Shown here: positions 25,896 through 36,195 of the stretch, piece by piece
Layout of the letters: every line of letters starts with the position of its first letter
Position numbering within the stretch: the first letter of the stretch is position 1
Virus record (IMG/VR): IMGVR_UViG_2541047873_000006
Strand: one strand, 5' to 3'
From: a virus
Taxonomy: Duplodnaviria; Heunggongvirae; Uroviricota; Caudoviricetes
DNA length: 37,458 nt
The notes under the pieces: model-generated
Database searches by the model: none
Told to the model about the DNA's origin: nothing
The model's input: the letters and a program-made list of their open reading frames with translations, nothing else
Program-made: the position numbers and the translations under genes

Positions 25896-25928
25896 AAAAC
25901 CGCTAATCTGAACATTAGCGGTTTTTTG
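25896..25928. terminator. Bidirectional intrinsic terminator between convergent G and U
   Basis: AACCGCTAAT-CTGAAC-ATTAGCGGTT stem-loop flanked by an A-run on the left and TTTTTT on the right. Confidence 0.65.
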
Positions 25929-25935
25929 CGTTAAT

Positions 25936-26430
25936 TCAGAACAGCCCTTTAACTGAACTGGTTGCGCTGTTAAGAGATGATGTCACCTTATCTTTGAAGC
26001 CGGACAGCATATCGCTGAACGATGAGGATTGCAGGCGCTCCCGCAAATCCTCATCACAGCGTTCAAGGGTCAGTGAAAATTCTATCTTTTTCGCCTTACC
26101 GTAGCGATCAAACTCGGAACGGGTCGTATTCGTTTCGGTCAGAACATACATGCCGTAAATCTGCCCGACGCCATCAATAAGAGGCCAGGGGCGTCCTGTA
26201 TACGCCTGCGTGGTCAGCAGCGACAGTGACACTTCACCACCTGTAATTTCAGGATAAAGCACACCAGAAAGAACAATACGATCATCGCCTGCCCCGATAT
26301 ACTGCCAGCTTGCTGAACGGTTAACGCGTTCATTTTTCACATGCCGCCAGCTTTTATTTTGCTGTAACTGCTGATGCGGCAACGTGCGCAGCTCAAAAAC
26401 AAACATGCCGTAGATCATCATCATGGCCAT
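25936..26430 (-). CDS. U: Tail protein U (P2 gpU-like), 164 aa
   Basis: Track ORF; N-terminus MAMMMIYGMFVFELRT resembles P2 U (MMMVLG-FVF-LRT as recalled); directly downstream of the tape measure gene on the same strand. Confidence 0.75.
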   Translation of the reverse strand: MAMMMIYGMFVFELRTLPHQQLQQNKSWRHVKNERVNRSASWQYIGAGDDRIVLSGVLYPEITGGEVSLSLLTTQAYTGRPWPLIDGVGQIYGMYVLTETNTTRSEFDRYGKAKKIEFSLTLERCDEDLRERLQSSSFSDMLSGFKDKVTSSLNSATSSVKGLF

Positions 26431-26436
26431 GACTCC

Positions 26437-29280
26437 TCAATCTTTATCGTAAAAACTGCCACGTCCGGCACGGGCGCGCCGTTCCATCTCTGCCCTGACC
26501 ATTTCACCGACCAGTTTCGCCAGTTCGCGGGGATTCTGCGTAACAACGTTATGCAGATGAACATGAATTTCACCACCAAATCCGGAGGCAACAGGCTCCC
26601 GGTTACGGGAAGTTACAGGAACTGATGCCACTGGAGATCGTATGGCCTCCGCCACCGGGCGGGAGCTGGCCGCAACAACAGGGACCAGCGCCGGAGGCAG
26701 CGGAGCCGGGACCACGGGTGTGATATTAATTGCGGGGGCAGGCTTACTGACCTGTGCAATCTTCCGCTCCTGCCACTCCCCACGAACAGCAAGTGCGCGG
26801 GGCAGGTTCTTAAAGACAATATCGCCGGGGCCAATGCGTTTTTTCGTCTCATCAACCAGCTTACCTGTGTTATCAGCAATTTTGCTGAGTCTGCGTAGCG
26901 TCCCGGTATTGCTGTCTGTGAGCGGTTTGTTGTCTTTGGGTTTATGACCTCCGGTGCCATTGCCATTTTCCACAGGCTTCGGCGGATTGATTTTCGCAAG
27001 GTCCCCCTGAAGCAAGGCAACCTTGTCCTGAAGAATGGCCGCACGCTGTGCGTCTTCGATTTTCTTGCGCGCCCTTTCCGCTTCATCCGGAAGAACACCG
27101 AGTTTTTCAAGTATCCACGCCAGCGTATCCAGCAACATTTTTGCAGGCGTCATAACAAGCTGTAACGCGCCACCAAGAACGTTACCGAATATCTCGCCAG
27201 CACTGGTACATTTATCCAGCGTTTCCTTGCTGGACTCCATCGGTGACAGCAGCAATTTAAACCAGTTAAACACCTGGCTGATCCCGCTTCCGATTGCGTC
27301 AAAAACAGGGCCAAACCGTTCAAAGGTTTCACGCAACGGGTTCAGCCTTTCCATAATCCCGCTGAACACCCCGGCAAAAAATGCCCTGATGGGATCCCAG
27401 TATTTCCAGATAAGTACGGCAGCTCCGGCAAGCGCAGCCACGATAAGACCAACCGGACTGAACAGCGCCCCGATAGCGCCTCCCAGCAAAGAAACGGAAC
27501 CCGTCAGCATTCCCCACAGCGCAGGCAACACCCTGACGACATTCATTGACCGGGTAAGAATGTCAAAACCAAGACGCAGGGTGGCCAGCTTTCCGTAAAG
27601 CACCCCAATAACCAGCGACAACGAGCCAATCGTTGCAGTCATTGCCAGCAACGCACCGCCTGCTATCAGTAGCTGGCGCGTCAGTACCGGATGGGCCTGC
27701 GCCAGCGAGGTGATTTTTTCAAGCACCCGCGTGAGCCACTGCGTGACAGAACGCAGCGGACCGTCAACCAGATCACTGATGCGAATACGAAGACCTTCCC
27801 ATGCGCTGTCGAGATTTTTCAGGTCCCCATCAAGATTATCGGCCATTACTTTTGCAACGCGATCGGCCTCTCCCCTTGCCCCCTGCAGTTCTCTGGTCAG
27901 TTTTTGCAGCTCTCCTGAACCAGCCGCCGCAACAAGCGTCTGCAAACCAACGAACGCCTCTTCTCCGGCGATGTCCTTGAAGAAGGAGACCTGGTCCACC
28001 TGTCCGTATTTTTGTGTCGCCTTATAGAGATCAAGCAGCACATCCTCCATCGGGCGCATTTTGCCTCTGGCGTCAGCAACTGACACCCCCAGCTCTTTCA
28101 GTGCATCAGCCGCAGCTTTTGGCGGTGATGCAAGGCGGGACAGACTTGCGCGCATGGCCGTGCCAGCATCGCTTCCGCGAAGACCATTATTGGCAAGCAT
28201 CCCGGCCATGGCCGCCGCTTCTTCAAGACTGATACCAAGTTTTGCGGCAACCGGACCGGTATACTTCATGGTTTCGCCCAGCGCGCGTAAATCAGTATTG
28301 GTCCGGGTAAATGCTGCTGTCAGCGTATCGCCCACCCGGTCCATTTGATCGGCTGTCAGGTTGAACTGTGTGAGGATATTGGAGCCTATATCCGCCGTCT
28401 CGCCGAGTTCGACGCCACCTGCCAGCGCCATATTAAGAACACCGGGCAATGCGGCCTGAATGGCCTGCGGAGTAAAACCAGCCATTGCCAGAAAGCTCTG
28501 CCCACTGGCGGCATCACTCGCAGTAAACTGTGTTTCAGAGCCAAGTTTTAACGCCTGCTCACGCAGCGCCTTAAACTGCGGGCTGTTTTTGTCGATTCGC
28601 GTCAGTGCCTGAACGCGGGACATCTCTTTGCCGAACCCGAGCGCAGGCTGCAAAAAACGCCCGGCAGCATAGCCGCCCGCCGCTGCCGCACCAATTGCCA
28701 GCGCACCACCTGTTTTCAGTTTTCCCGCGGTTTCCTGCGCGCGCGAATACCGCTCACGCGCCCGCGTTACACGCGCAAGCGCCTGCCGTTCGCGTTCAAG
28801 CTGGTTGTTGTACTGTTCGGTGCGTCTGATGGCCTGCTGGATGGTGTTATCGCTGCCTGTCAGGGAAATGCCGTGGCGTTTCAGCTCTCCGCCAAGCTCC
28901 CGCATTTTCTGAATTTCCCGTGTGCGCGATTCATTCAGGCGTTCAAGCCGGGTGCTTAACTGCTGCATCAGCTTTTGTTGTTTTTCGCTGAGCACTGTAC
29001 CCGTGCGTTGTAACTGATTAAGGGCGTTAAGCTGGCGTCGTGCTTTCACGATACCCGCATCCGCTTTACTGACAGCGTCGCGGGCGCGCTCAAATGATCG
29101 CGCCTGACGCTCGAGATTTTTGATCGCCCCCTGCGTTCGCTGGATGGAGTCACCAAACTGCCCCATCAGGCGGCGGGCGTTTTCGGCAGGCCGGGTCAGC
29201 CTGTCAACGGCGCTGAAAGCGACCCGGATATCAAGAGTCTTCATTGTCTGCATTCCCGCTGCGAAGTGCCGCCCGCTCAC
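26437..29280 (-). CDS. T: Tail tape measure protein (P2 gpT-like), 947 aa
   Basis: Track ORF; long Ala/Gly/Leu-rich coiled-coil and hydrophobic segments; follows E/E'. Confidence 0.85.
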   Translation of the reverse strand: MSGRHFAAGMQTMKTLDIRVAFSAVDRLTRPAENARRLMGQFGDSIQRTQGAIKNLERQARSFERARDAVSKADAGIVKARRQLNALNQLQRTGTVLSEKQQKLMQQLSTRLERLNESRTREIQKMRELGGELKRHGISLTGSDNTIQQAIRRTEQYNNQLERERQALARVTRARERYSRAQETAGKLKTGGALAIGAAAAGGYAAGRFLQPALGFGKEMSRVQALTRIDKNSPQFKALREQALKLGSETQFTASDAASGQSFLAMAGFTPQAIQAALPGVLNMALAGGVELGETADIGSNILTQFNLTADQMDRVGDTLTAAFTRTNTDLRALGETMKYTGPVAAKLGISLEEAAAMAGMLANNGLRGSDAGTAMRASLSRLASPPKAAADALKELGVSVADARGKMRPMEDVLLDLYKATQKYGQVDQVSFFKDIAGEEAFVGLQTLVAAAGSGELQKLTRELQGARGEADRVAKVMADNLDGDLKNLDSAWEGLRIRISDLVDGPLRSVTQWLTRVLEKITSLAQAHPVLTRQLLIAGGALLAMTATIGSLSLVIGVLYGKLATLRLGFDILTRSMNVVRVLPALWGMLTGSVSLLGGAIGALFSPVGLIVAALAGAAVLIWKYWDPIRAFFAGVFSGIMERLNPLRETFERFGPVFDAIGSGISQVFNWFKLLLSPMESSKETLDKCTSAGEIFGNVLGGALQLVMTPAKMLLDTLAWILEKLGVLPDEAERARKKIEDAQRAAILQDKVALLQGDLAKINPPKPVENGNGTGGHKPKDNKPLTDSNTGTLRRLSKIADNTGKLVDETKKRIGPGDIVFKNLPRALAVRGEWQERKIAQVSKPAPAINITPVVPAPLPPALVPVVAASSRPVAEAIRSPVASVPVTSRNREPVASGFGGEIHVHLHNVVTQNPRELAKLVGEMVRAEMERRARAGRGSFYDKD

Positions 29281-29467
29281 GCCAGCTAACCACTTCGCCG
29301 GGCGTCATCATGAAGATTTCGGCGGGCGACCAGTTAAAAATGGCGGCAATATCCGCCACAAAGTCTTCTATGTGCTCAAAGCACACAACCGTGATCAGGC
29401 TTCCGTCGCCTGTTCGTTCTTCCCGCCAGAGTCCGCACCGCTCAAAAAATTTACGGCAACCACACAT
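29231..29467 (-). CDS. E': E' frame: -1 frameshift extension of tail assembly chaperone (E+E' fusion)
   Basis: Track ORF in the -1 frame overlapping the 3' end of E and the start of T; slippery heptamer inferred from both protein frames. Confidence 0.6.
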   Translation of the reverse strand: MCGCRKFFERCGLWREERTGDGSLITVVCFEHIEDFVADIAAIFNWSPAEIFMMTPGEVVSWRERAALRSGNADNEDS

Positions 29468-29760
29468 AACTGAATAAAGTCACGGGATGCCATTTTTTTG
29501 ATCGTCACTTCATCCAGTCGCGGTGATGTCACGCGTGACAGCAGCGTAAACATGGATTCCGCTTTCAGATTCAGCACATCAGACAGCGACAAATCTCGCA
29601 GAGATCCAGCCTGCTCAATAGCCCCGGTGATCTCCACATACGTGATTTTTTCGCCGCCTCGCTCAATTGGTTGGGTAAGTTTTACGCCACGCTCACTGGT
29701 TTCTTTCACAGTGTCAGTAACTACCATGTTTTCGGTATCGATGTTTTTCGTCTCTTTCAT
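29395..29760 (-). CDS. E: Tail assembly chaperone E (P2 gpE-like), 121 aa
   Basis: Track ORF between tail tube FII and tape measure T. Confidence 0.8.
   Translation of the reverse strand: MKETKNIDTENMVVTDTVKETSERGVKLTQPIERGGEKITYVEITGAIEQAGSLRDLSLSDVLNLKAESMFTLLSRVTSPRLDEVTIKKMASRDFIQLCVVAVNFLSGADSGGKNEQATEA
29443..29449 (-). other. Programmed -1 ribosomal frameshift slippery site T-TTT-TTG
   Basis: E frame reads ...A V N F L (GTA AAT TTT TTG) and the E' frame reads K F F E (AAA TTT TTT GAG) over the same DNA. Confidence 0.55.
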
Positions 29761-29814
29761 CAGGAAACTCCTTTCAGTCAGAGGCGACGCACTGCGCCGC
29801 CTGCATATTACTTA

Positions 29815-30327
29815 TCAGCCAAGCCCGAGCGCGGAACGGATGCGATCGGGCACAATGTCCTTGCCGTCCTTCCGGTAAATGAAGTTCAGCAGGTCAATCT
29901 CCCACAACGGGCGATCGTTAACACTCAGCTTGTAGTAGGTGTTTTTAATGGCGTAAGTGTGTGATGTGGCTTCGCCCTGTTTGGCTTCCCCCATATCAAT
30001 TTCCGTCACACGTCCGCGCATTTCGACTTCATACAGGTCGCTTTCTGCATCGGTGTAGTATTCACCCGCAAAACGCAGCAGCGTGCCGTCAATCGTGCCG
30101 CCATACTTAAGGAACAGCTCACGAACTGCGCCCCCCATGACAAAGCTCGCATCAAGCGCGGAGTCGTCCAGACCGAGATCAATACTTACCGCACCCATCA
30201 TGCCACCACCCCGGTAGCTGTCGGTTTTGCGCGTCAGCTTAGGTAGAGTGACAGACGTCACCTTACCCACTTCGTTTTCACCATCCACAAACAGCGTAAA
30301 AAAGCGAAGATGTTTTGGTACAGCCAT
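29815..30327 (-). CDS. FII: Tail tube protein (P2 gpFII-like), 170 aa
   Basis: Track ORF; size and position after the sheath gene. Confidence 0.85.
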   Translation of the reverse strand: MAVPKHLRFFTLFVDGENEVGKVTSVTLPKLTRKTDSYRGGGMMGAVSIDLGLDDSALDASFVMGGAVRELFLKYGGTIDGTLLRFAGEYYTDAESDLYEVEMRGRVTEIDMGEAKQGEATSHTYAIKNTYYKLSVNDRPLWEIDLLNFIYRKDGKDIVPDRIRSALGLG

Positions 30328-31511
30328 CAGGCACCTCCCAGCACCGCAAATGCGGGACCAAAGAATTCATCAGTAAACGACTGGTAAAGCTCCATGTCTT
30401 CCAGCGGGGGAACAGGCGTATATTTGTAGCGAATACGCACGCGCCCCTGACGTAAATTCGTGGTGCCGTTATCCACCACGTCATACCAGCACGACGCCCC
30501 AATCAGTTTCCCGGCAGTAACCAGTGAATCCAGTTTTGCCCTGATGGCACTGATAACATCTTTCACGTTCGCAGGCGTCAGTGGACTGTCGATGGTTTCA
30601 AACTGCGCTTCCGCAATTGAATCAGCCAGCACCTGTGCGGTTCGGGTATACACCTCAAAGATGTAGGCGTTCGTTTCCGGTGTGCGGTTGCCCCAGAAGC
30701 GGAACCCGTTGCGACGAATAATGGTCGTGATTTCTTTGTTGTTGAGGCTGTTGGCATCGCTGTCTTCGGCCTGCAACGACCAGAACACATGCCTGGACAT
30801 TCCCAGCACATTTTTAACCGGAACGTTGGACAGCGATTTGTGCCAGCCCTGCTCATGGTCAATGTACGCACGAAGACCGCACGCATAAGCAGGCGCGGGG
30901 AACGTTTCGTTTTTGCCACTTTTCGGGTTGTAGGCGATGAAGTCAGGCCATAAGAGCATCACCTCACGTTCGTTGAATTTCTGGCGGTAGGTAATCGCCT
31001 CAGCCATCGTGTTACAACCATGACATGTGGCATACACAAACGCGCGCAGTTTACCCGCAATCACGCACAGGGATTTTGTCACCGCCTCCGTGTCCAGCTC
31101 CGGCGCGGCCAGAATACGCGGACGGTATCCGATGCTTTCATCCTGCTCTGCAACAAGCAGCGCATACATCCCCGTATAGCTGCCGTCATCCTCAGAACCA
31201 CCGATAACCAGTTGATCCTGCGTCTTACCGTCTTCTCCTTTGTGTTCAGCCACGCGAACGACGATCACCTTTGTGCTCACCTGGTCTGCGATGGCCTTAA
31301 GCGCACGATAAAGCGTCCCCGTTGTTCCGCATTTTCCCAGCACGTCATTGACGCGGGTCAGCAGTGTGGGCTTGTTCAGCGGGAACAGCTTCGCGTCCGC
31401 ATCATCCGCCGTTGCCACGATACCGATAACGCTGGAATCAACATCGTTAATCGCTGTTACCAGGTCGGTATTTTCCGTAACACGGGCACCATGAAAACGA
31501 GTTTCACTCAT
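30327..31511 (-). CDS. FI: Contractile tail sheath protein (P2 gpFI-like), 394 aa
   Basis: Track ORF; ...FPLNKPTLLT...GTLYRALKAIADQ...KVIVVRVAE aligns with the recalled P2 FI N-terminus; overlaps FII start. Confidence 0.9.
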   Translation of the reverse strand: MSETRFHGARVTENTDLVTAINDVDSSVIGIVATADDADAKLFPLNKPTLLTRVNDVLGKCGTTGTLYRALKAIADQVSTKVIVVRVAEHKGEDGKTQDQLVIGGSEDDGSYTGMYALLVAEQDESIGYRPRILAAPELDTEAVTKSLCVIAGKLRAFVYATCHGCNTMAEAITYRQKFNEREVMLLWPDFIAYNPKSGKNETFPAPAYACGLRAYIDHEQGWHKSLSNVPVKNVLGMSRHVFWSLQAEDSDANSLNNKEITTIIRRNGFRFWGNRTPETNAYIFEVYTRTAQVLADSIAEAQFETIDSPLTPANVKDVISAIRAKLDSLVTAGKLIGASCWYDVVDNGTTNLRQGRVRIRYKYTPVPPLEDMELYQSFTDEFFGPAFAVLGGA

Positions 31512-31668
31512 AGCTTCAGCCCCTTGTATCCGTTAAATGATTCGGCAACAATCATCACCCACCACGCGCGTAATCTCACCCCTGCGCCGTTCTCCCGCCA
31601 CGGCGACAACAAAAAGCAGTAACCCCCTACGCACGCACATGCGACCATGCCGCACAGGGAGGGAACAG
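31512..31668. promoter_or_regulatory. Divergent promoter region between FI (minus) and D (plus)
   Basis: Both genes initiate from this 157-bp spacer; no canonical TGT-N12-ACA dyad seen by eye. Confidence 0.35.
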
Positions 31669-32778
31669 ATGACCGATACCACCATGCAATTGCTCAGTCA
31701 GAGCACAGACCCCGTGAAAATGCCGGATTTTGATATTCTCGCGGAGGGGGAAACACTGTCCGGCGTGGCAGAGCGCCTGATGAGCCTGTCACTGACCGAC
31801 AACCGGGGATTTGAAGCGGACCAGCTCACCATCACGCTGGATGATGCGGATGGTCAGTTGCAGCTACCGCCACGGGGCGCGCGCCTGACGGTTCTCATTG
31901 GCTGGAAAGGAGAACCGCTGACAGAAAAAGGCACTTACATTGTTGATGAAATCGCTCACGAAGGACCGCCGGACAGGCTGACGGTTTCAGCCAGAAGCGC
32001 AGATTTTCGGGATGAATTTAACGTTAAACGTGAGGTGTCCTGGCATGATGTGACCGTTGAGCGCGTGGTATCCGCCATCGCTCATCGGTATGGTCTGAAA
32101 CCGCAAATCAGCGAAATGCTGATGGATATCGAAATCGACCACGCCGACCAGACTGAAGAAAGCGACATGTCCTTCCTTACGCGCATGGCGGAAATGCTGG
32201 GCGCAATCACCACGGTAAAAAGCGGTAATCTGTTATTCATCATGCCCGGCGGTGGCGTGAACGCACAGAGCCAGCCGTTGCCATCGTTCGCCATCACACG
32301 CAGCAGCGGCGATCGCCATCAGTTCCGCATTGCTGACCGCGAGGCGTATACGGGGGTACGCGCTTACTGGCTTGATCTTAATTACGGGAAAAAGAAAAAA
32401 GTCAGCGTGAAACGCCGCAAACCGCCAAAACCCAAAAAGGAGAAAAGCATCAGCCGTGAAGGTGATTATATGGAAGGCGCGGAAGGCAATGTGTTTGTGT
32501 TACGCAAGACTTATCAGAACGAGCAGGCAGCAAGACGCGCAGCGGCGGCAAAGTGGCAGCAGCTACAACGCGGAGCCGCATCATTTTCCATCACGCTGGC
32601 GCGTGGACGTGCAGAACTCTACCCCGAAATGCATGGCACGGTAACAGGATTTAAAAGCGAGATTGATAATCAGGACTGGATTATTGCGAAAGCCGAGCAC
32701 ACCATTGATAACAGCGGCTTTACCACACAGCTTGAGCTTGAGGCAAAAATCCCGGAATGGATAGCAGAAACAGAGTGA
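31669..32778 (+). CDS. D: Tail protein / late control protein D (P2 gpD-like), about 369 aa
   Basis: Track ORF 31537..32778; start at MTDTTMQ (ATG 31669) with GGGAGGG Shine-Dalgarno; size as P2 D. Confidence 0.8.
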   Translation: MTDTTMQLLSQSTDPVKMPDFDILAEGETLSGVAERLMSLSLTDNRGFEADQLTITLDDADGQLQLPPRGARLTVLIGWKGEPLTEKGTYIVDEIAHEGPPDRLTVSARSADFRDEFNVKREVSWHDVTVERVVSAIAHRYGLKPQISEMLMDIEIDHADQTEESDMSFLTRMAEMLGAITTVKSGNLLFIMPGGGVNAQSQPLPSFAITRSSGDRHQFRIADREAYTGVRAYWLDLNYGKKKKVSVKRRKPPKPKKEKSISREGDYMEGAEGNVFVLRKTYQNEQAARRAAAAKWQQLQRGAASFSITLARGRAELYPEMHGTVTGFKSEIDNQDWIIAKAEHTIDNSGFTTQLELEAKIPEWIAETE

Positions 32779-32845
32779 GCAACTTAGACATATTAGCTCA
32801 AACTTAAACTGGCAAGTTTACAGTATAGAATTAAACATAAACGAC

Positions 32846-32876
32846 GGTCCGCTCCGTGTCAGAAGCGGACTTTGTC
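32846..32876 (+). terminator. Candidate terminator after D
   Basis: GTCCGCT...AGCGGAC stem-loop followed by TTTGTC; weak. Confidence 0.3.
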
Positions 32877-32898
32877 ATCCCTATGTAAGGTTGATTGC

Positions 32899-33921
32899 TT
32901 AATACGCATTTAATTTAAATTTGTATTTGCCTTCTATGTAATGGATAAATTCAATTATGCTTTTTTCTATCGCATCTAATATATGAATATATCCATCCCG
33001 ATTTAAGGTCCTATCCAACTCAAAGTGATGAACTATCCCATGTCTATATTGTATGATTTCAGAAATTCGATTCTCAAGAAAATCAACTGATTTTCCAATT
33101 CTTTTTTTCTTATAAAGAATCGCTCTCACATCTATATCCAGCCACTCTTTATATGCTTTGTTTAGGTGGGTTAAGTTTTGAAAAGTGTAATTTCTTGCAA
33201 TAACACTTTCTATTGAAATATTTCCTTTCTCTATCTCAAGCAGAATATCAAAATCAACTTTTTGCTTATACGATGTTCTTTTTGCTATTGCGAAAGGATC
33301 GTACTTTATAAGTATTTGAAAAGCTCTAGAGAAAAAGTATTCAAACATAGCAACCGCAAAAGGTACTAATCCATTATATATAACTCTACTGGGATCCATA
33401 CATTGCATGTAATCAAAGTATTCGGATAAGCCGCCATCTTCCGGTAGGTTTAATTTAATAGAAGGTTCAGGTAAGGCATGTTTAACAGCGGAAATCTCAT
33501 GATGGACATGATTAAATATTGAAGAAATGCCACGACTGATCGGACTACTAGAATCCTTCCATAGAGGAGCGTACCTATTTTTCCCATAATCACCTATAAG
33601 TGTTCCACCAAAAAGACTCCTTGCGCCTTTTAGAACATCATTAAGCATTTTTACATCATGCCAACTAGCGCTATATAAATTACGCACATGCAATGCCCAT
33701 TTATTACCAGATATGTGTAATTCGTCATTTGAAACAGGATATATATCAGCCGAAACTCCATCTGTAGATTTGAAGTCTGTATCATCAAACCAAGAGTAAT
33801 TCAACGTTCCTTGGGGCCATTCCCACAAATGTTTACACCTTTTAAAACCTAAATTTTCAAGGTAATTTTTAAGTTCGTTTCTAGTTGCTTTTTTAGGGTA
33901 CAGCGTTATATCTCTTCCCAT
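32899..33921 (-). CDS. AT-rich cargo gene between D and ogr; 340-aa protein with C-terminal HEPN-like R-x4-H motif (candidate abortive-infection/defence effector)
   Basis: Track ORF; visibly lower GC than the flanking phage genes; opposite strand to D and ogr; motif ...IIQYRHGIVHH... in a predicted helical C-terminal half. Confidence 0.65.
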   Translation of the reverse strand: MGRDITLYPKKATRNELKNYLENLGFKRCKHLWEWPQGTLNYSWFDDTDFKSTDGVSADIYPVSNDELHISGNKWALHVRNLYSASWHDVKMLNDVLKGARSLFGGTLIGDYGKNRYAPLWKDSSSPISRGISSIFNHVHHEISAVKHALPEPSIKLNLPEDGGLSEYFDYMQCMDPSRVIYNGLVPFAVAMFEYFFSRAFQILIKYDPFAIAKRTSYKQKVDFDILLEIEKGNISIESVIARNYTFQNLTHLNKAYKEWLDIDVRAILYKKKRIGKSVDFLENRISEIIQYRHGIVHHFELDRTLNRDGYIHILDAIEKSIIEFIHYIEGKYKFKLNAY

Positions 33922-34112
33922 GCTTTATTCACCTGATATACAATATTTTAAATTTTAACTATTATGAACGTATGAATTTTCACATTGGATGTATGGAAGT
34001 TCAACAACTATTGAAAGTTCAATTTTCACTCTTCGCACAGAGCGAGCTGTTAGTTGGAATTAGGGATCGTACAATCTAGAATAGCGGCAACACCACGTTA
34101 AGGGAGGTCGCT

Positions 34113-34373
34113 ATGTTCCGTTGTCCGCTTTGTGGCGCATCTGCCCGTATCCGCACAAGTCGTCCGGAAAATGATTCAAACACCGTGCGGCAAAAGTATT
34201 ACCAGTGTAACAATCTGGAATGCGGCGTATGCTTCTCAACACTGGAAGCTTTCCATAAATTCACATCGAAACACGCCTCCGGCGTTCACTCTTCAGAAGG
34301 TATCCCGTGGCATGAGCTACCAGCTTCACACAGGGGAAACAATCAGATGAGTTTGCCTTTACCTCAGAATTAA
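34113..34373 (+). CDS. ogr: Late gene activator Ogr/Delta-family zinc-finger protein, 86 aa
   Basis: MFRCPLCGASARIRTSR...YYQCNNLECGVCF matches the recalled P2 Ogr (MFHCPLCQHAAHARTSR...YHQCQNVNCSATF) with the same Cys spacing; GGGAGG Shine-Dalgarno. Confidence 0.8.
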   Translation: MFRCPLCGASARIRTSRPENDSNTVRQKYYQCNNLECGVCFSTLEAFHKFTSKHASGVHSSEGIPWHELPASHRGNNQMSLPLPQN

Positions 34374-34563
34374 CAAGCAGAATTGCCGGAGTAACAAAAA
34401 AGCGATAGATTACGCGCGGGTGCCTTTCGGCTGATGGTCGGAGGGAATACCCGAAGGCCAGATGTGGAAAGGCCCCGGAAAACACTTTTGTTTAACCGAG
34501 GCCCTAACCGTCTACCCTAAGCAAGTGAAAGGTTAGCGCCTCTCCGGAAAAGGAGCAAGTGCT

Positions 34564-34704
34564 ATGTCGCAAAAATCGCTTACAGCCATCACGTTCTGCG
34601 TGACGGTAATCCTCATCATCTGGATGTTGCACGGTTCGCTGTGCGAAATACGGATGAGTTTCTGGGGAGCGGAGTTTGCGGCGTTCTTACAGTGTAAGCA
34701 GTAA
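34564..34704 (+). CDS. Hok/Gef-family type I toxin (46 aa)
   Basis: Not in the ORF track (under 60 aa); ATG 34564 with AAGGAG 8 nt upstream; N-terminal transmembrane helix then ...SLCEIR...EFAAFLQCKQ, matching the Hok family signature (LCEIR...EVAAF). Confidence 0.6.
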   Translation: MSQKSLTAITFCVTVILIIWMLHGSLCEIRMSFWGAEFAAFLQCKQ

Positions 34705-34964: not shown

Positions 34965-35297
34965 ATGGCATTAATCAAATGTCCTGAATGCCAGAAAGAG
35001 GTGAGCGATTCAGCATTGTATTGCCCTGCTTGCGGTAAACAAATAAAAAAACTTAAGCGTTCATTTTTTGGAAAGCTCATTAAGTGGATATTTATATTAT
35101 TTAATATTTTTATGATCTATACGCTTTTAGTTGGACTGGGAGGCACTAGTGAAATAATAAATAATGCTACATCCGATGCCGAAAAAGCCGGTGCAGTTAT
35201 TGGTACAGGCTTAGGTTTAATTACCATTGGAAGTTTATGGGTTATTGGCGATATCATTATCGGAATTTTAGTATTTCTTACTAAACCAAAAGGATAA
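34965..35297 (+). CDS. Zinc-ribbon membrane protein (110 aa), AT-rich cargo
   Basis: Track ORF with AAAGGAGG Shine-Dalgarno; CPEC-x12-CPAC ribbon then two hydrophobic helices. Confidence 0.6.
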   Translation: MALIKCPECQKEVSDSALYCPACGKQIKKLKRSFFGKLIKWIFILFNIFMIYTLLVGLGGTSEIINNATSDAEKAGAVIGTGLGLITIGSLWVIGDIIIGILVFLTKPKG

Positions 35298-35301
35298 CAA
35301 A

Positions 35302-36195
35302 ATGAAAAATATAATTTTTTCTATAGGTGCATCATTTATATCAATTAGTGTACTGCCTGTTCACGCAGCAACTGAACATAATAACTTCAATGCAGTACTC
35401 CAGTGCCGAGCAATAGAAAATAATAAAGACAGACTTTCTTGTTACGATAAGTCAATACAACCGACTCGAACGAAAGTTGCTGAAAAATTCGAAAGCAGAG
35501 ATCAATGCCCTGATGAGAAAGATGATGACAGACGTTTATCTTGTTATGATCGTTTTTTTTCTCCAACATTTACTCCATCTGTAAACTCAAAATCTAAAAC
35601 GGAAAAGCCAGTAACAACAGAGGCTCAGCAACCAAATCTTTCTGAGATATCTAAATGCCGAGCAGAAAATGATAAAGAAGCCAGACTAAACTGCTACGAT
35701 AAACTATTCCCACAGGATAAAGCTGTTCAAGCTGAATCAAAATTAGAGAAAGCCACAGATGTAGGAAAATGGCACACATCCATTACTACATCGCCAATTG
35801 ATGATTCGAAAAATGTAATTTTATCGTTAGAAAGTGATGATTATATCAGAACTCCATTTGGAGAAGCGGTTACTCCCACTCTGTTTATAGCTTGCCGAGA
35901 AAAGAAAACCGAAGTATTTCTTAGTTGGGATGTATATTTAGGCCTTGAACAAACCAGCATGCTTTATCGTCTTGATAAACAGAAAGCAGTTGAGCGAAAC
36001 TGGCTAGTATCTACAGATACAAAGGCTGTTTTTTATAAAGGTAATGACATTGATTTCATCCGAAAACTAGCCAACTCAAACAAAATGTATACAAAAATAA
36101 CTCCTTATAATGAGAGCCCTGTAAGTGCAACTTTCAATTTAAACGGCCTGTCAAACGCGCTAAAACCACTTCAAGCTGCTTGTAACTGGAAATAG
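35302..36195 (+). CDS. Secreted protein with three Cys-pair repeats (297 aa), AT-rich cargo
   Basis: Track ORF; signal-peptide-like N-terminus; three repeats of C-x(7-9)-RL-x-CYD-[KR]; starts 5 nt after the previous stop. Confidence 0.65.
   Translation: MKNIIFSIGASFISISVLPVHAATEHNNFNAVLQCRAIENNKDRLSCYDKSIQPTRTKVAEKFESRDQCPDEKDDDRRLSCYDRFFSPTFTPSVNSKSKTEKPVTTEAQQPNLSEISKCRAENDKEARLNCYDKLFPQDKAVQAESKLEKATDVGKWHTSITTSPIDDSKNVILSLESDDYIRTPFGEAVTPTLFIACREKKTEVFLSWDVYLGLEQTSMLYRLDKQKAVERNWLVSTDTKAVFYKGNDIDFIRKLANSNKMYTKITPYNESPVSATFNLNGLSNALKPLQAACNWK

What the first reader, a model, noticed from the sequence alone, without database searches (positions are those of the whole stretch)
32779..34112. 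AT-rich single-gene cargo between D and ogr encoding a 340-aa protein with a HEPN-like R-x4-H motif
A visibly AT-rich gene on the opposite strand to D and ogr is inserted where P2 has D directly followed by ogr. The C-terminal half is predicted helical and contains RHGIVHH, matching the R-x(4-6)-H signature of HEPN RNases found in many abortive-infection and toxin proteins. The N-terminal half of about 180 aa has no recognisable family. This is a strong candidate for an undescribed single-gene anti-phage or toxin system carried as a moron.
Basis: inference. Interest (0 to 1): 0.7.

Follow-up and report, generated by a model that had tools for sequence, protein, structure and literature searches.

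The report
Prophage-borne single-gene HEPN RNase candidate
An AT-rich gene slotted between the tail gene D and the regulator ogr of a P2-like E. coli prophage encodes a stand-alone protein with an uncharacterised N-terminal domain and a HEPN ribonuclease domain; it sits at a swappable cargo site that in sister prophages holds known anti-phage genes, so it is a good but untested candidate for a new single-gene phage-defence system.

Summary
A 340-aa ORF (32899-33921, minus strand, 33.5% GC against 52-54% around it) lies between D and ogr.

The HEPN call also holds, but not because of the motif. R-x4-H appears in 51% of shuffles of this protein. The real evidence:
- R293 and H298 are invariant down to ~20% identity.
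- 30 of 36 diverse relatives match Pfam PF18735 (RiboL-PSP-HEPN). This protein is sub-threshold.

No partner gene is conserved in 34 loci, and no RNA antitoxin was found.

New here: D-ogr is a cargo hotspot in this phage lineage. It is usually empty (42 bp). Otherwise it holds this gene (65 of 5426 complete E. coli genomes), bSEFIR, PDC-S31/DUF2971 or an unknown 221-aa protein, all between shared flanks. The two P2 hotspot papers I read do not mention it.

Best reading: a single-protein, autoinhibited HEPN RNase acting in abortive infection. Function is untested. I rate it a new variant of a known kind, with moderate interest.

The parts
32899..33921 (-). CDS, 340 aa: N-terminal alpha/beta domain + HEPN domain (identical to WP_000532200.1, annotated 'hypothetical protein')
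   Evidence: The start is confirmed by the invariant MGRD N-terminus in homologues.
33472..33921 (-). N-terminal domain, aa 1-150: beta-alpha-beta3-alpha-beta core plus a long helix. Family-wide conserved residues are G55, S86, D89, N94, F104-G105-G106 and G113. No sequence family; TBP-like-class fold.
32917..33396 (-). HEPN domain, aa 176-335 (RiboL-PSP-HEPN type, PF18735). Invariant residues are E194, F247-Q248 and R293/H298.
33028..33045 (-). Codons for R293-H-G-I-V-H298, the R-x4-H catalytic signature
   Evidence: invariance
32789..34080 (.). Inserted cargo cassette (1292 bp, 34% GC) relative to the empty D-ogr junction
32780..32788 (+). Left copy of an imperfect 9-bp direct repeat, CAACTTAGA, at the cassette boundary
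34072..34080 (+). Right copy of the direct repeat, CAATCTAGA (7 of 9 identical). It is preceded by the flank ATCAGTTGGA.TTAG shared by all four cassette types.
32847..32870 (.). G+C-rich hairpin GTCCGCTCCGTGTCAGAAGCGGAC between the convergent D and cargo genes. It looks like a terminator on both strands and is conserved in the HEPN, bSEFIR and DUF2971 cassettes.
33929..33934 (-). Shine-Dalgarno AGGTGA, 7 nt upstream of the ATG
33976..34004 (-). Weak sigma-70-like promoter candidate for the cargo gene: TTGAAC-17-GAAAAT with a TG-extended -10. Consensus match only.
34054..34082 (+). Promoter-like site TTGGAA-17-TAGAAT in front of ogr, spanning the right cassette junction
31537..32778 (+). Left flank: gpD-like tail/late control protein
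34113..34373 (+). Right flank: ogr late-gene activator

Best explanation
The gene encodes a self-contained, single-protein HEPN ribonuclease carried as exchangeable cargo at a D-ogr hotspot of a P2-like prophage. It is probably expressed from its own promoter in the lysogen, antisense to the late genes. Proposed mechanism, by analogy and not shown: in uninfected cells the protein rests in an inactive state in which the N-terminal TBP-like domain holds or occludes the HEPN domain. A cue from a superinfecting phage lets two HEPN domains form the canonical dimer that juxtaposes the two R293-x4-H298 motifs, with E194 assisting. The enzyme then cuts RNA (tRNA, rRNA or mRNA) without metal, leaving 2',3'-cyclic phosphate ends. 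Translation stops and the infection aborts, which protects the clonal lysogen population and therefore the prophage. The N-terminal domain may also anchor the RNA substrate, as TBP1 does in RnlA. Shown here: the domain make-up, the conserved catalytic signature, the stand-alone status, the mobility, and the hotspot location alongside known defence genes. Inferred: RNase activity, dimer switching, the trigger, and the defence phenotype.
For: HEPN domain:
- PF18735 matches at E 1.2e-4 over aa 181-329, covering 161 of 191 profile positions.
- 30 of 36 relatives down to ~20% identity match PF18735, best E 5e-9.
- Many close homologues carry a precomputed PF18735 assignment.
- R293 and H298 are invariant. 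H294 is near-invariant (N in a few), fitting the R-[NHD]-x3-H pattern. E194 and F247-Q248 are also invariant or near-invariant.

Architecture:
- The two-domain form of ~320-360 aa is kept across 284 clusters at 50% identity.

Stand-alone status:
- No neighbour is shared across lineages in 34 loci.
- The cassette has only ~110 bp and ~160 bp outside the CDS, with no Rfam hit and no tandem repeats.

Cargo and defence context:
- All 65 E. coli carriers have the D-cargo-ogr arrangement.
- The same junction is empty in most sister prophages. Others carry bSEFIR (PADLOC E 1e-43), PDC-S31/DUF2971 (E 6e-27) or an unknown 221-aa protein, between shared flanks.
- Other homologues sit at the end of a lambdoid prophage, next to tail-fibre assembly genes of a P2-like phage, after lambda-P-like replication genes, and in integrase-bearing or integrative elements.
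- PF18735-type HEPN domains are listed in the validated systems PD-T4-2, PD-T4-5, PD-T7-3 and ApeA (PMC10952713).
Against: - No experiment supports activity or defence.
- This protein's own Pfam score (22.5 bits) is below the gathering threshold (28.4).
- The model is least confident exactly at the catalytic motif (pLDDT below 50 at 292-298, drawn as strands).
- All structural matches are modest (Z no higher than 8.2). Generic helical bundles and alpha/beta sandwiches score similarly.
- No PADLOC model matches, including PD-T4-5, ApeA and the Abi families.
- Outside E. coli the immediate neighbours are mostly housekeeping genes. Only one or two loci have Hachiman next door, so the classical defence-island signal is weak.
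- Sequence conservation of 57-73% across at least 10 phyla is unusually high for an immune gene. It could point to a different, conserved cellular role.
- A free-standing toxic RNase with no antitoxin needs an autoinhibition mechanism for which there is no direct evidence.
Confidence: 0.6

Rival explanations
1. It is an addiction or stabilisation toxin rather than an immune gene. A HEPN RNase toxin would be neutralised in cis by its own N-terminal domain, or by an unrecognised labile factor, and would penalise loss of the prophage or element that carries it.
For: HEPN RNases are common toxin-antitoxin toxins; 7ae2, 5yep and RnlA are among the structural matches. The same prophage already carries a hok/sok-type module next to ogr. 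The gene is spread across many element types.
Against: No antitoxin gene is present or conserved, and there is no RNA antitoxin signature. A cis-fused antitoxin cannot give post-segregational killing unless the two parts differ in stability. The site's alternative occupants are defence genes, not TA modules. Many toxin-antitoxin systems are themselves abortive-infection systems, so this rival overlaps the main explanation.
Confidence: 0.12
2. It serves the phage's own life cycle or inter-element conflict rather than host defence. Examples would be degrading host or satellite (P4-like) transcripts during P2-type lytic growth, or modulating late-gene (ogr-dependent) expression.
For: It lies immediately next to ogr, the late activator that P4 satellites exploit. 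The gene is found in several unrelated temperate phages.
Against: It is absent from most sister prophages, so it is dispensable for the phage. It is antisense to the late operons and has its own SD and promoter-like region. Many homologues are in non-phage chromosomal contexts.
Confidence: 0.08
3. It is a conserved cellular RNA-processing or nucleotide-binding protein that happens to be horizontally mobile, not a conflict system.
For: Conservation is unusually high, at 57-73% identity across at least 10 phyla. Most non-E. coli neighbours are housekeeping genes.
Against: The distribution is extremely patchy: 65 of 5426 E. coli genomes, and 36 loci among about 186,000 species representatives with the patterns used. 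The gene has atypical GC. Every lineage has a different neighbourhood. It resides in prophages and islands.
Confidence: 0.07
4. It is a catalytically inactive HEPN-like scaffold or sensor whose effect, if any, does not involve RNA cleavage.
For: Some HEPN families are non-catalytic, according to the table in Anantharaman 2013. The model is unsure around the motif.
Against: R293, H298 and E194 are invariant across the whole family. That pattern marks active HEPN families.
Confidence: 0.05

Closest known systems
RiboL-PSP-HEPN family (Pfam PF18735; Anantharaman et al. 2013, PMC3710099)
   Same: The C-terminal domain matches this profile. It has the R-x4-H motif with a polar residue after the R. 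The family is described as distantly related to AbiD/AbiF and predicted to target mRNA.
   Different: The founding members are fused to an endoRNase L-PSP domain or lie in an operon with ParB. Here the N-terminal domain shows no L-PSP match and no ParB neighbour. This protein scores below the Pfam gathering threshold.
AbiD/AbiD1/AbiF (Abi_2) and PD-T4-5 (Vassallo et al. 2022, PMC9519451)
   Same: All are single-gene, mobile-element-borne HEPN proteins giving abortive infection. PD-T4-5 is described as a distant relative of AbiF/D and is listed with a PF18735-type HEPN.
   Different: No Abi_2 Pfam hit and no PADLOC hit to the Abi or PD-T4-5 models at E up to 1. The N-terminal domain is different. 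PD-T4-5 is plasmid-borne.
RnlA/LsoA toxins (PMC8266594)
   Different: There is one N-terminal domain instead of two, and no RnlB/LsoB-type antitoxin gene. A family profile found no sequence similarity to any PDB chain, RnlA included, at E up to 10. The fold match is weak.
ApeA (Gao et al. 2020) and other single-protein HEPN defence systems
   Same: A stand-alone HEPN protein with a non-catalytic N-terminal region, presumed to be autoinhibited until infection. ApeA is listed with a PF18735-type HEPN.
   Different: No PADLOC ApeA match. Size and N-terminal region differ.
P2-like prophage defence hotspots: A-Q (old/tin) and Z/fun (Rousset 2022, PMC9122126; Vassallo 2022, PMC9519451)
   Same: A variable slot between conserved phage core genes, holding alternative small defence cassettes including known systems. 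One homologue (L055) sits beside the tail-fibre assembly gene, which is the Z/fun-type position.
   Different: The slot here is the D-ogr junction, which neither paper mentions ('ogr' has 0 occurrences in both). It is empty in most prophages and so far has been seen only with single-gene cassettes.

Membership tests
HEPN superfamily / RiboL-PSP-HEPN (PF18735) | Profile match at Pfam's curated threshold | tested here: inconclusive
   This protein scores 22.5 bits against a cut-off of 28.4 (E 1.2e-4), covering profile positions 29-189 of 191. 30 of 36 diverse relatives match at E up to 0.1, best 5e-9. Many close homologues carry a precomputed PF18735 assignment.
HEPN superfamily / RiboL-PSP-HEPN (PF18735) | Conserved R-x4-6-H motif with a polar residue (N/H/D) after the R | tested here: met
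   R293 and H298 are invariant and H294 is at least 90% conserved (N in a few) across 36 sequences down to ~20% identity. The bare motif alone is not significant.
HEPN superfamily / RiboL-PSP-HEPN (PF18735) | All-alpha helical-bundle HEPN fold | tested here: met
HEPN superfamily / RiboL-PSP-HEPN (PF18735) | Fusion to an endoRNase L-PSP domain or operon with ParB (origin of the family name) | tested here: not met
   No L-PSP/YjgF Pfam hit in this protein or in 36 relatives. ParB does not appear among the most frequent neighbour families.
HEPN superfamily / RiboL-PSP-HEPN (PF18735) | Metal-independent RNase activity through a canonical HEPN dimer | not testable with these tools
   Needs biochemistry or a multimer model.
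AbiD/AbiF (Abi_2) / PD-T4-5 | Sequence-profile membership | tested here: not met
   No Abi_2 hit in Pfam at E up to 1. No PADLOC model hit at E up to 1.
AbiD/AbiF (Abi_2) / PD-T4-5 | Single gene sufficient, borne on a mobile element | tested here: met
   No conserved neighbour. Found in prophage and island contexts. Sufficiency itself is untested.
AbiD/AbiF (Abi_2) / PD-T4-5 | Abortive-infection phenotype | not testable with these tools
   Needs phage challenge.
RnlA/LsoA | TBP-like N-terminal domain(s) preceding the HEPN domain | tested here: inconclusive
RnlA/LsoA | Adjacent antitoxin gene (rnlB/lsoB) | tested here: not met
   The cassette holds one ORF, and no neighbour is conserved.
RnlA/LsoA | Sequence homology | tested here: not met
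   The family profile found no PDB chain at E up to 10.
Prophage defence-hotspot cargo | Variable slot between conserved core genes, with an empty state and alternative occupants between shared flanks | tested here: met
Prophage defence-hotspot cargo | Alternative occupants include recognised defence systems | tested here: met
   bSEFIR E 1.2e-43; PDC-S31 E 5.6e-27, which is a candidate system.
Prophage defence-hotspot cargo | Anti-phage phenotype of this occupant | not testable with these tools
   Needs cloning and phage challenge.

The most novel reading that the evidence does not exclude
The D-ogr junction is a third, so far undescribed defence hotspot of P2-like phages. Its commonest occupant among those found would be the founding member of a pan-bacterial, unusually conserved family of antitoxin-free TBP-like-HEPN immune ribonucleases. 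These would switch from a resting to a canonical HEPN dimer on sensing infection, acting as a minimal one-gene version of RnlA logic.
Probability: 0.4. Interest if true: 0.6.

Novelty: new variant of a known kind. Interest (0 to 1): 0.5.

Why it matters
If confirmed, this adds a new single-gene HEPN defence family, found from Enterobacterales to Bacteroidota, Cyanobacteria and Patescibacteria, to the known immune repertoire. It would also provide a compact model, at 340 aa with no partner gene, for how a toxic HEPN RNase is kept silent and then triggered. Separately, recognising D-ogr as a cargo slot gives a third place to mine P2-like prophages for defence genes. An unknown 221-aa protein occupies it in 58 E. 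coli genomes. The cassette is small and self-contained, so cloning it and testing it against phages is simple.

Tried and rejected
- **Family libraries.** PADLOC, NCBIfam and PHROGs gave nothing for the protein.
- **PDB sequences.** The family profile matched no chain at E up to 10.
- **L-PSP fusion.** I looked for the endoRNase L-PSP domain implied by the Pfam name. It is absent.
- **Partner or antitoxin gene.** All-against-all comparison of ORFs within 4 kb in 34 loci found only three syntenic Saccharibacteria genomes sharing neighbours.
- **RNA antitoxin or known RNA in the cassette.** Rfam at E up to 1 matched only the sok-like RNA downstream of ogr. There are no tandem repeats and only trivial repeats.
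- **Defence-island enrichment outside E. coli.** Of 114 pooled neighbour ORFs, only HamA/HamB, PDC-M23B and SngC hits appeared, in one or two loci. The rest are housekeeping genes, so I treated this as weak evidence.
- **Sharper identity for the N-domain.** The domain-only model matched the PDB at Z no higher than 8.2 and matched nothing significant in BFVD. The AFDB library was not available.
- **Broader sampling.** The locus search with the diverse alignment failed for lack of a conserved stretch. The second homologue search, with the diverse profile, mostly returned the same close subfamily, so the structure alignment stayed shallow.
- **Prior description.** Searches for WP_000532200, PF18735, RiboL-PSP and ogr with anti-phage terms found no description of this protein or of a D-ogr hotspot. 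The library lacks many subscription papers, and I could not run a current DefenseFinder.
- **Prophage defect.** I first took the sheath(-)/D(+) arrangement for a rearrangement defect. I dropped that idea because the same layout occurs in prophages at three different att sites.

Full report
**1. What is in the sequence**

The window carries a P2-like prophage integrated between pdxB and flk. At 32899-33921 on the minus strand there is a 340-aa ORF. It lies between a gpD-like gene (31537-32778 +, Phage_GPD E 9e-17) and ogr (34113-34373 +, Ogr_Delta E 5e-14).

The ORF is 33.5% GC (GC3 26%). D is 53.7%, ogr 48.3% and the window 51.9%. A good Shine-Dalgarno (AGGTGA) lies 7 nt upstream of the ATG, and the MGRD N-terminus is invariant in close homologues, so the start is secure. 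Upstream on the same strand there are only weak promoter-like matches. A G+C-rich hairpin at 32847-32870 lies between the convergent D and cargo genes.

RHGIVH is residues 293-298.

**2. Is the motif meaningful?**

Not by itself. R-x4-H turns up in 51% of shuffles of this protein, and R-x4-6-H in 88%. It also occurs a second time at residue 308. Three other lines make the HEPN call credible.

- **Profile match.** Pfam PF18735 (RiboL-PSP-HEPN) matches aa 181-329 over nearly the whole profile at E 1.2e-4. That is 22.5 bits against a gathering threshold of 28.4. Of 36 relatives spanning 62% down to ~19% identity, 30 match PF18735 (best E 5e-9). Many close homologues have the domain precomputed or are named 'RiboL-PSP-HEPN domain-containing protein'.
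- **Conservation.** In that 36-sequence alignment the only invariant residues are G55, D89, E194, F247, R293 and H298. H294 and Q248 are near-invariant. The second R-x4-H is not conserved.

**3. The N-terminal half**

Residues 1 to ~150 match nothing in Pfam, NCBIfam, PHROGs, PADLOC or PDB sequences. Even so, this half is the more conserved part of the close subfamily. Its own family-wide conserved residues are G55, S86, D89, N94, FGG104-106 and G113.

An exhaustive HMMER scan of 1.8 billion cluster representatives found 284 clusters. Full-length hits keep the same two-domain architecture of ~320-360 aa down to ~22% identity. N-only or C-only hits are short and look like fragments.

**4. Stand-alone and mobile**

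ORFs within 4 kb of the gene were compared all-against-all in 34 loci from different lineages. No neighbour family is shared beyond three syntenic Saccharibacteria genomes. The cassette leaves about 110 bp and 160 bp outside the CDS. These stretches contain no Rfam match, no tandem repeats and only trivial repeats. There is therefore no protein antitoxin and no evident RNA antitoxin.

The close subfamily (57-73% identity) occurs in Gamma- and Betaproteobacteria, Desulfobacterota, Bacteroidota, Acidobacteriota, Latescibacterota, Cyanobacteria, Patescibacteria and Spirochaetia. More distant members are in Actinomycetota and Saccharibacteria. It is nonetheless rare: 36 loci among about 186,000 species representatives with the two strict peptide patterns used.

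Contexts include:
- a lambdoid prophage next to lambda-P-like replication genes, in Pantoea;
- the end of a lambdoid prophage after tail fibres and umuDC (L054);
- beside the tail-fibre assembly gene of a P2-like myovirus (L055), the Z/fun-type position;
- an island with an integrase, in Hafnia;
- a Pseudomonas integrative element with a DUF927 primase and MvaT;
- small chromosomal islets.

Pooled immediate neighbours are otherwise mostly housekeeping genes, with Hachiman next door in one or two loci. The classical defence-island signal is therefore weak outside E. coli.

**5. The D-ogr junction is a cargo hotspot**

A query made of D plus ogr-hok with the cargo removed finds about 850 complete E. 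coli genomes with both flanks. In most sampled rows D and ogr are contiguous. In the empty state 42 bp separate the D stop from the ogr ATG. Other prophages of the same lineage, integrated at serS, ihfA or pdxB-flk, carry a different single gene at exactly this point.

| Occupant | Size, strand | Identification | Complete E. coli genomes |
|---|---|---|---|
| HEPN gene (this finding) | 340 aa, minus | PF18735 (sub-threshold) | 65, all in the D-cargo-ogr context |
| Unknown protein | 221 aa, plus | no Pfam or PADLOC hit | 58 |
| DUF2971 protein | 261 aa | PADLOC PDC-S31, E 5.6e-27 | 16 |
| TIR/SEFIR protein | 302 aa | PADLOC bSEFIR, E 1.2e-43 | 5 |

Alignment of the junctions shows the HEPN cassette is 32789-34080 (1292 bp). 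It is bounded by an imperfect 9-bp direct repeat, CAACTTAGA at the left and CAATCTAGA at the right. The different cassettes share a left flank (the first ~11 bp in all four cassettes; the terminator hairpin in three) and a right flank (ATCAGTTGGA.TTAG...CTAGA). That pattern fits exchange by recombination between common flanks. A promoter-like TTGGAA-17-TAGAAT for ogr spans the right junction.

Rousset et al. 2022 describe the A-Q (old/tin) hotspot, and Vassallo et al. 2022 add the Z/fun locus. Neither text contains 'ogr'. My other searches found no description of a D-ogr hotspot or of this protein. The library is incomplete, so prior description elsewhere cannot be excluded.

**6. Most likely function and mechanism**

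I think this is a single-protein HEPN ribonuclease that protects the lysogen by abortive infection. The nearest functional analogues are AbiD/AbiF, PD-T4-5 ('a distant relative of AbiF/D') and ApeA. A review lists all of these, with PD-T4-2 and PD-T7-3, as carrying PF18735-type HEPN domains.

By analogy with RnlA, the N-terminal domain may do two things. It may hold the HEPN domain in a resting state, and it may anchor the RNA substrate. Activation would then mean forming the canonical HEPN dimer that juxtaposes the two R293/H298 motifs.

- **Shown:** domain make-up, conserved catalytic signature, stand-alone status, mobility, and hotspot location with defence genes.
- **Inferred:** RNase activity, dimer switch, trigger, target and phenotype.

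My confidence that it is a HEPN-family protein is about 0.85-0.9. That its role is anti-phage or abortive-infection-type toxicity, about 0.6. That the specific regulatory model is right, about 0.35.

**7. Rivals**

- **Addiction toxin with cis or unknown neutralisation (0.12).** This overlaps with abortive infection. No antitoxin was found.
- **A phage-serving RNase, or a role in P2/P4 conflict (0.08).** The gene is dispensable in most sister prophages and antisense to the late genes.
- **A mobile but cellular RNA-processing protein (0.07).** The unusually high cross-phylum conservation and the housekeeping neighbours favour it. The extreme patchiness and atypical GC argue against it.
- **An inactive HEPN scaffold (0.05).** The invariant E, R and H argue against it.

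**8. Membership**

It is a member of the HEPN superfamily at the level of the PF18735 domain. The motif and fold criteria are met. The Pfam threshold is met by relatives but not by this sequence.

It does not have the L-PSP fusion that gave the family its name. It is not a detectable member of Abi_2, PD-T4-5, ApeA or RnlA/LsoA by sequence, and it lacks the RnlB-type partner. It works like those systems on paper. It should not be filed as any of them.

**9. Novelty and score**

Single-gene HEPN defence proteins in prophage hotspots are an established kind. What is new is this particular full-length family (unassigned N-domain plus RiboL-PSP-type HEPN, absent from PADLOC 2023) and the D-ogr slot.

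A specialist would find it plausible rather than startling. The unusual points are the very high conservation across phyla and the lack of any partner. I rate it 'new variant of a known kind', with interest 0.5.

Noticed in passing
L060:2774-3439 (+), same D-ogr slot as window 32789-34080: A 221-aa protein with no Pfam or PADLOC match occupies the D-ogr junction in 58 complete E. coli genomes, nearly as many as carry the HEPN gene. It is another untested cargo or defence candidate.
   Followed up: partly
window ~25900-31511 (minus strand) versus 31537-34373 (plus): The tail block FI-FII-E-E'-T-U runs opposite to D/ogr and to the O..G late genes, so it is inverted relative to the canonical P2 order as I recall it. 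The same layout is seen in prophages at serS, ihfA and pdxB-flk, so it is a lineage feature and not damage. A tail-fibre-assembly pseudogene fragment sits next to U.
   Followed up: partly
window 34418-34704: A hok/gef CDS (34564-34704) with an upstream sok-like RNA (Rfam RF01794, 51.9 bits, below the gathering score of 59, E 3.6e-10) follows ogr. It is present in all sister prophages examined at three att sites, so the prophage carries its own hok/sok-type module.
   Followed up: partly
window 34965-36195: AT-rich genes for a zinc-ribbon membrane protein (34965-35297) and a TagO-like protein (35302-36195) lie between the prophage end and flk. They are also present beside an empty-site prophage at the same att site but absent at the serS and ihfA sites. 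They therefore appear to be a separate host islet rather than prophage cargo.
   Followed up: partly
L003:28926-31123 (EcPF14 copy of this prophage; between replication gene A and portal Q): The classical A-Q (old/tin) hotspot of this prophage carries ParM/ParR-like partition genes plus three small hypothetical ORFs. This matches Rousset et al.'s remark that about a quarter of P2-like phages carry a partition system there.
   Followed up: no
window 31537-32778: RefSeq/PGAP annotates gene D as a 267-aa 'VgrG/Pvc8 family' protein plus an overlapping pseudogene fragment, although the ORF is 369-413 aa. Other records call it 'phage late control D family protein'. This is probably a start-site annotation artefact.
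   Followed up: no
L015 (DEQA01000038.1, 'Planococcaceae bacterium UBA3378' MAG): A 4.2-kb contig assigned to a Firmicutes MAG carries HEPN and hok copies 100% identical to the E. coli prophage, in the same hok-ogr-HEPN-D order (ogr 74%, D 99% identical). It is most likely a mis-binned E. coli contig.
   Followed up: no
family-wide (L028, L030, L031, L036, P0272 and others): The close subfamily keeps 57-73% amino-acid identity between Enterobacterales and Bacteroidota, Patescibacteria, Acidobacteriota, Latescibacterota and Cyanobacteria. That is unusually high for a presumed immune gene, and it implies recent wide horizontal transfer, very strong constraint, or both.
   Followed up: partly
L008:7121-10167: In Pseudomonas the homologue lies next to a convergently oriented UvrD-helicase protein (739 aa) plus a 276-aa protein with no Pfam family, inside an integrative element with a DUF927 primase and MvaT. 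This may be another defence pair.
   Followed up: no
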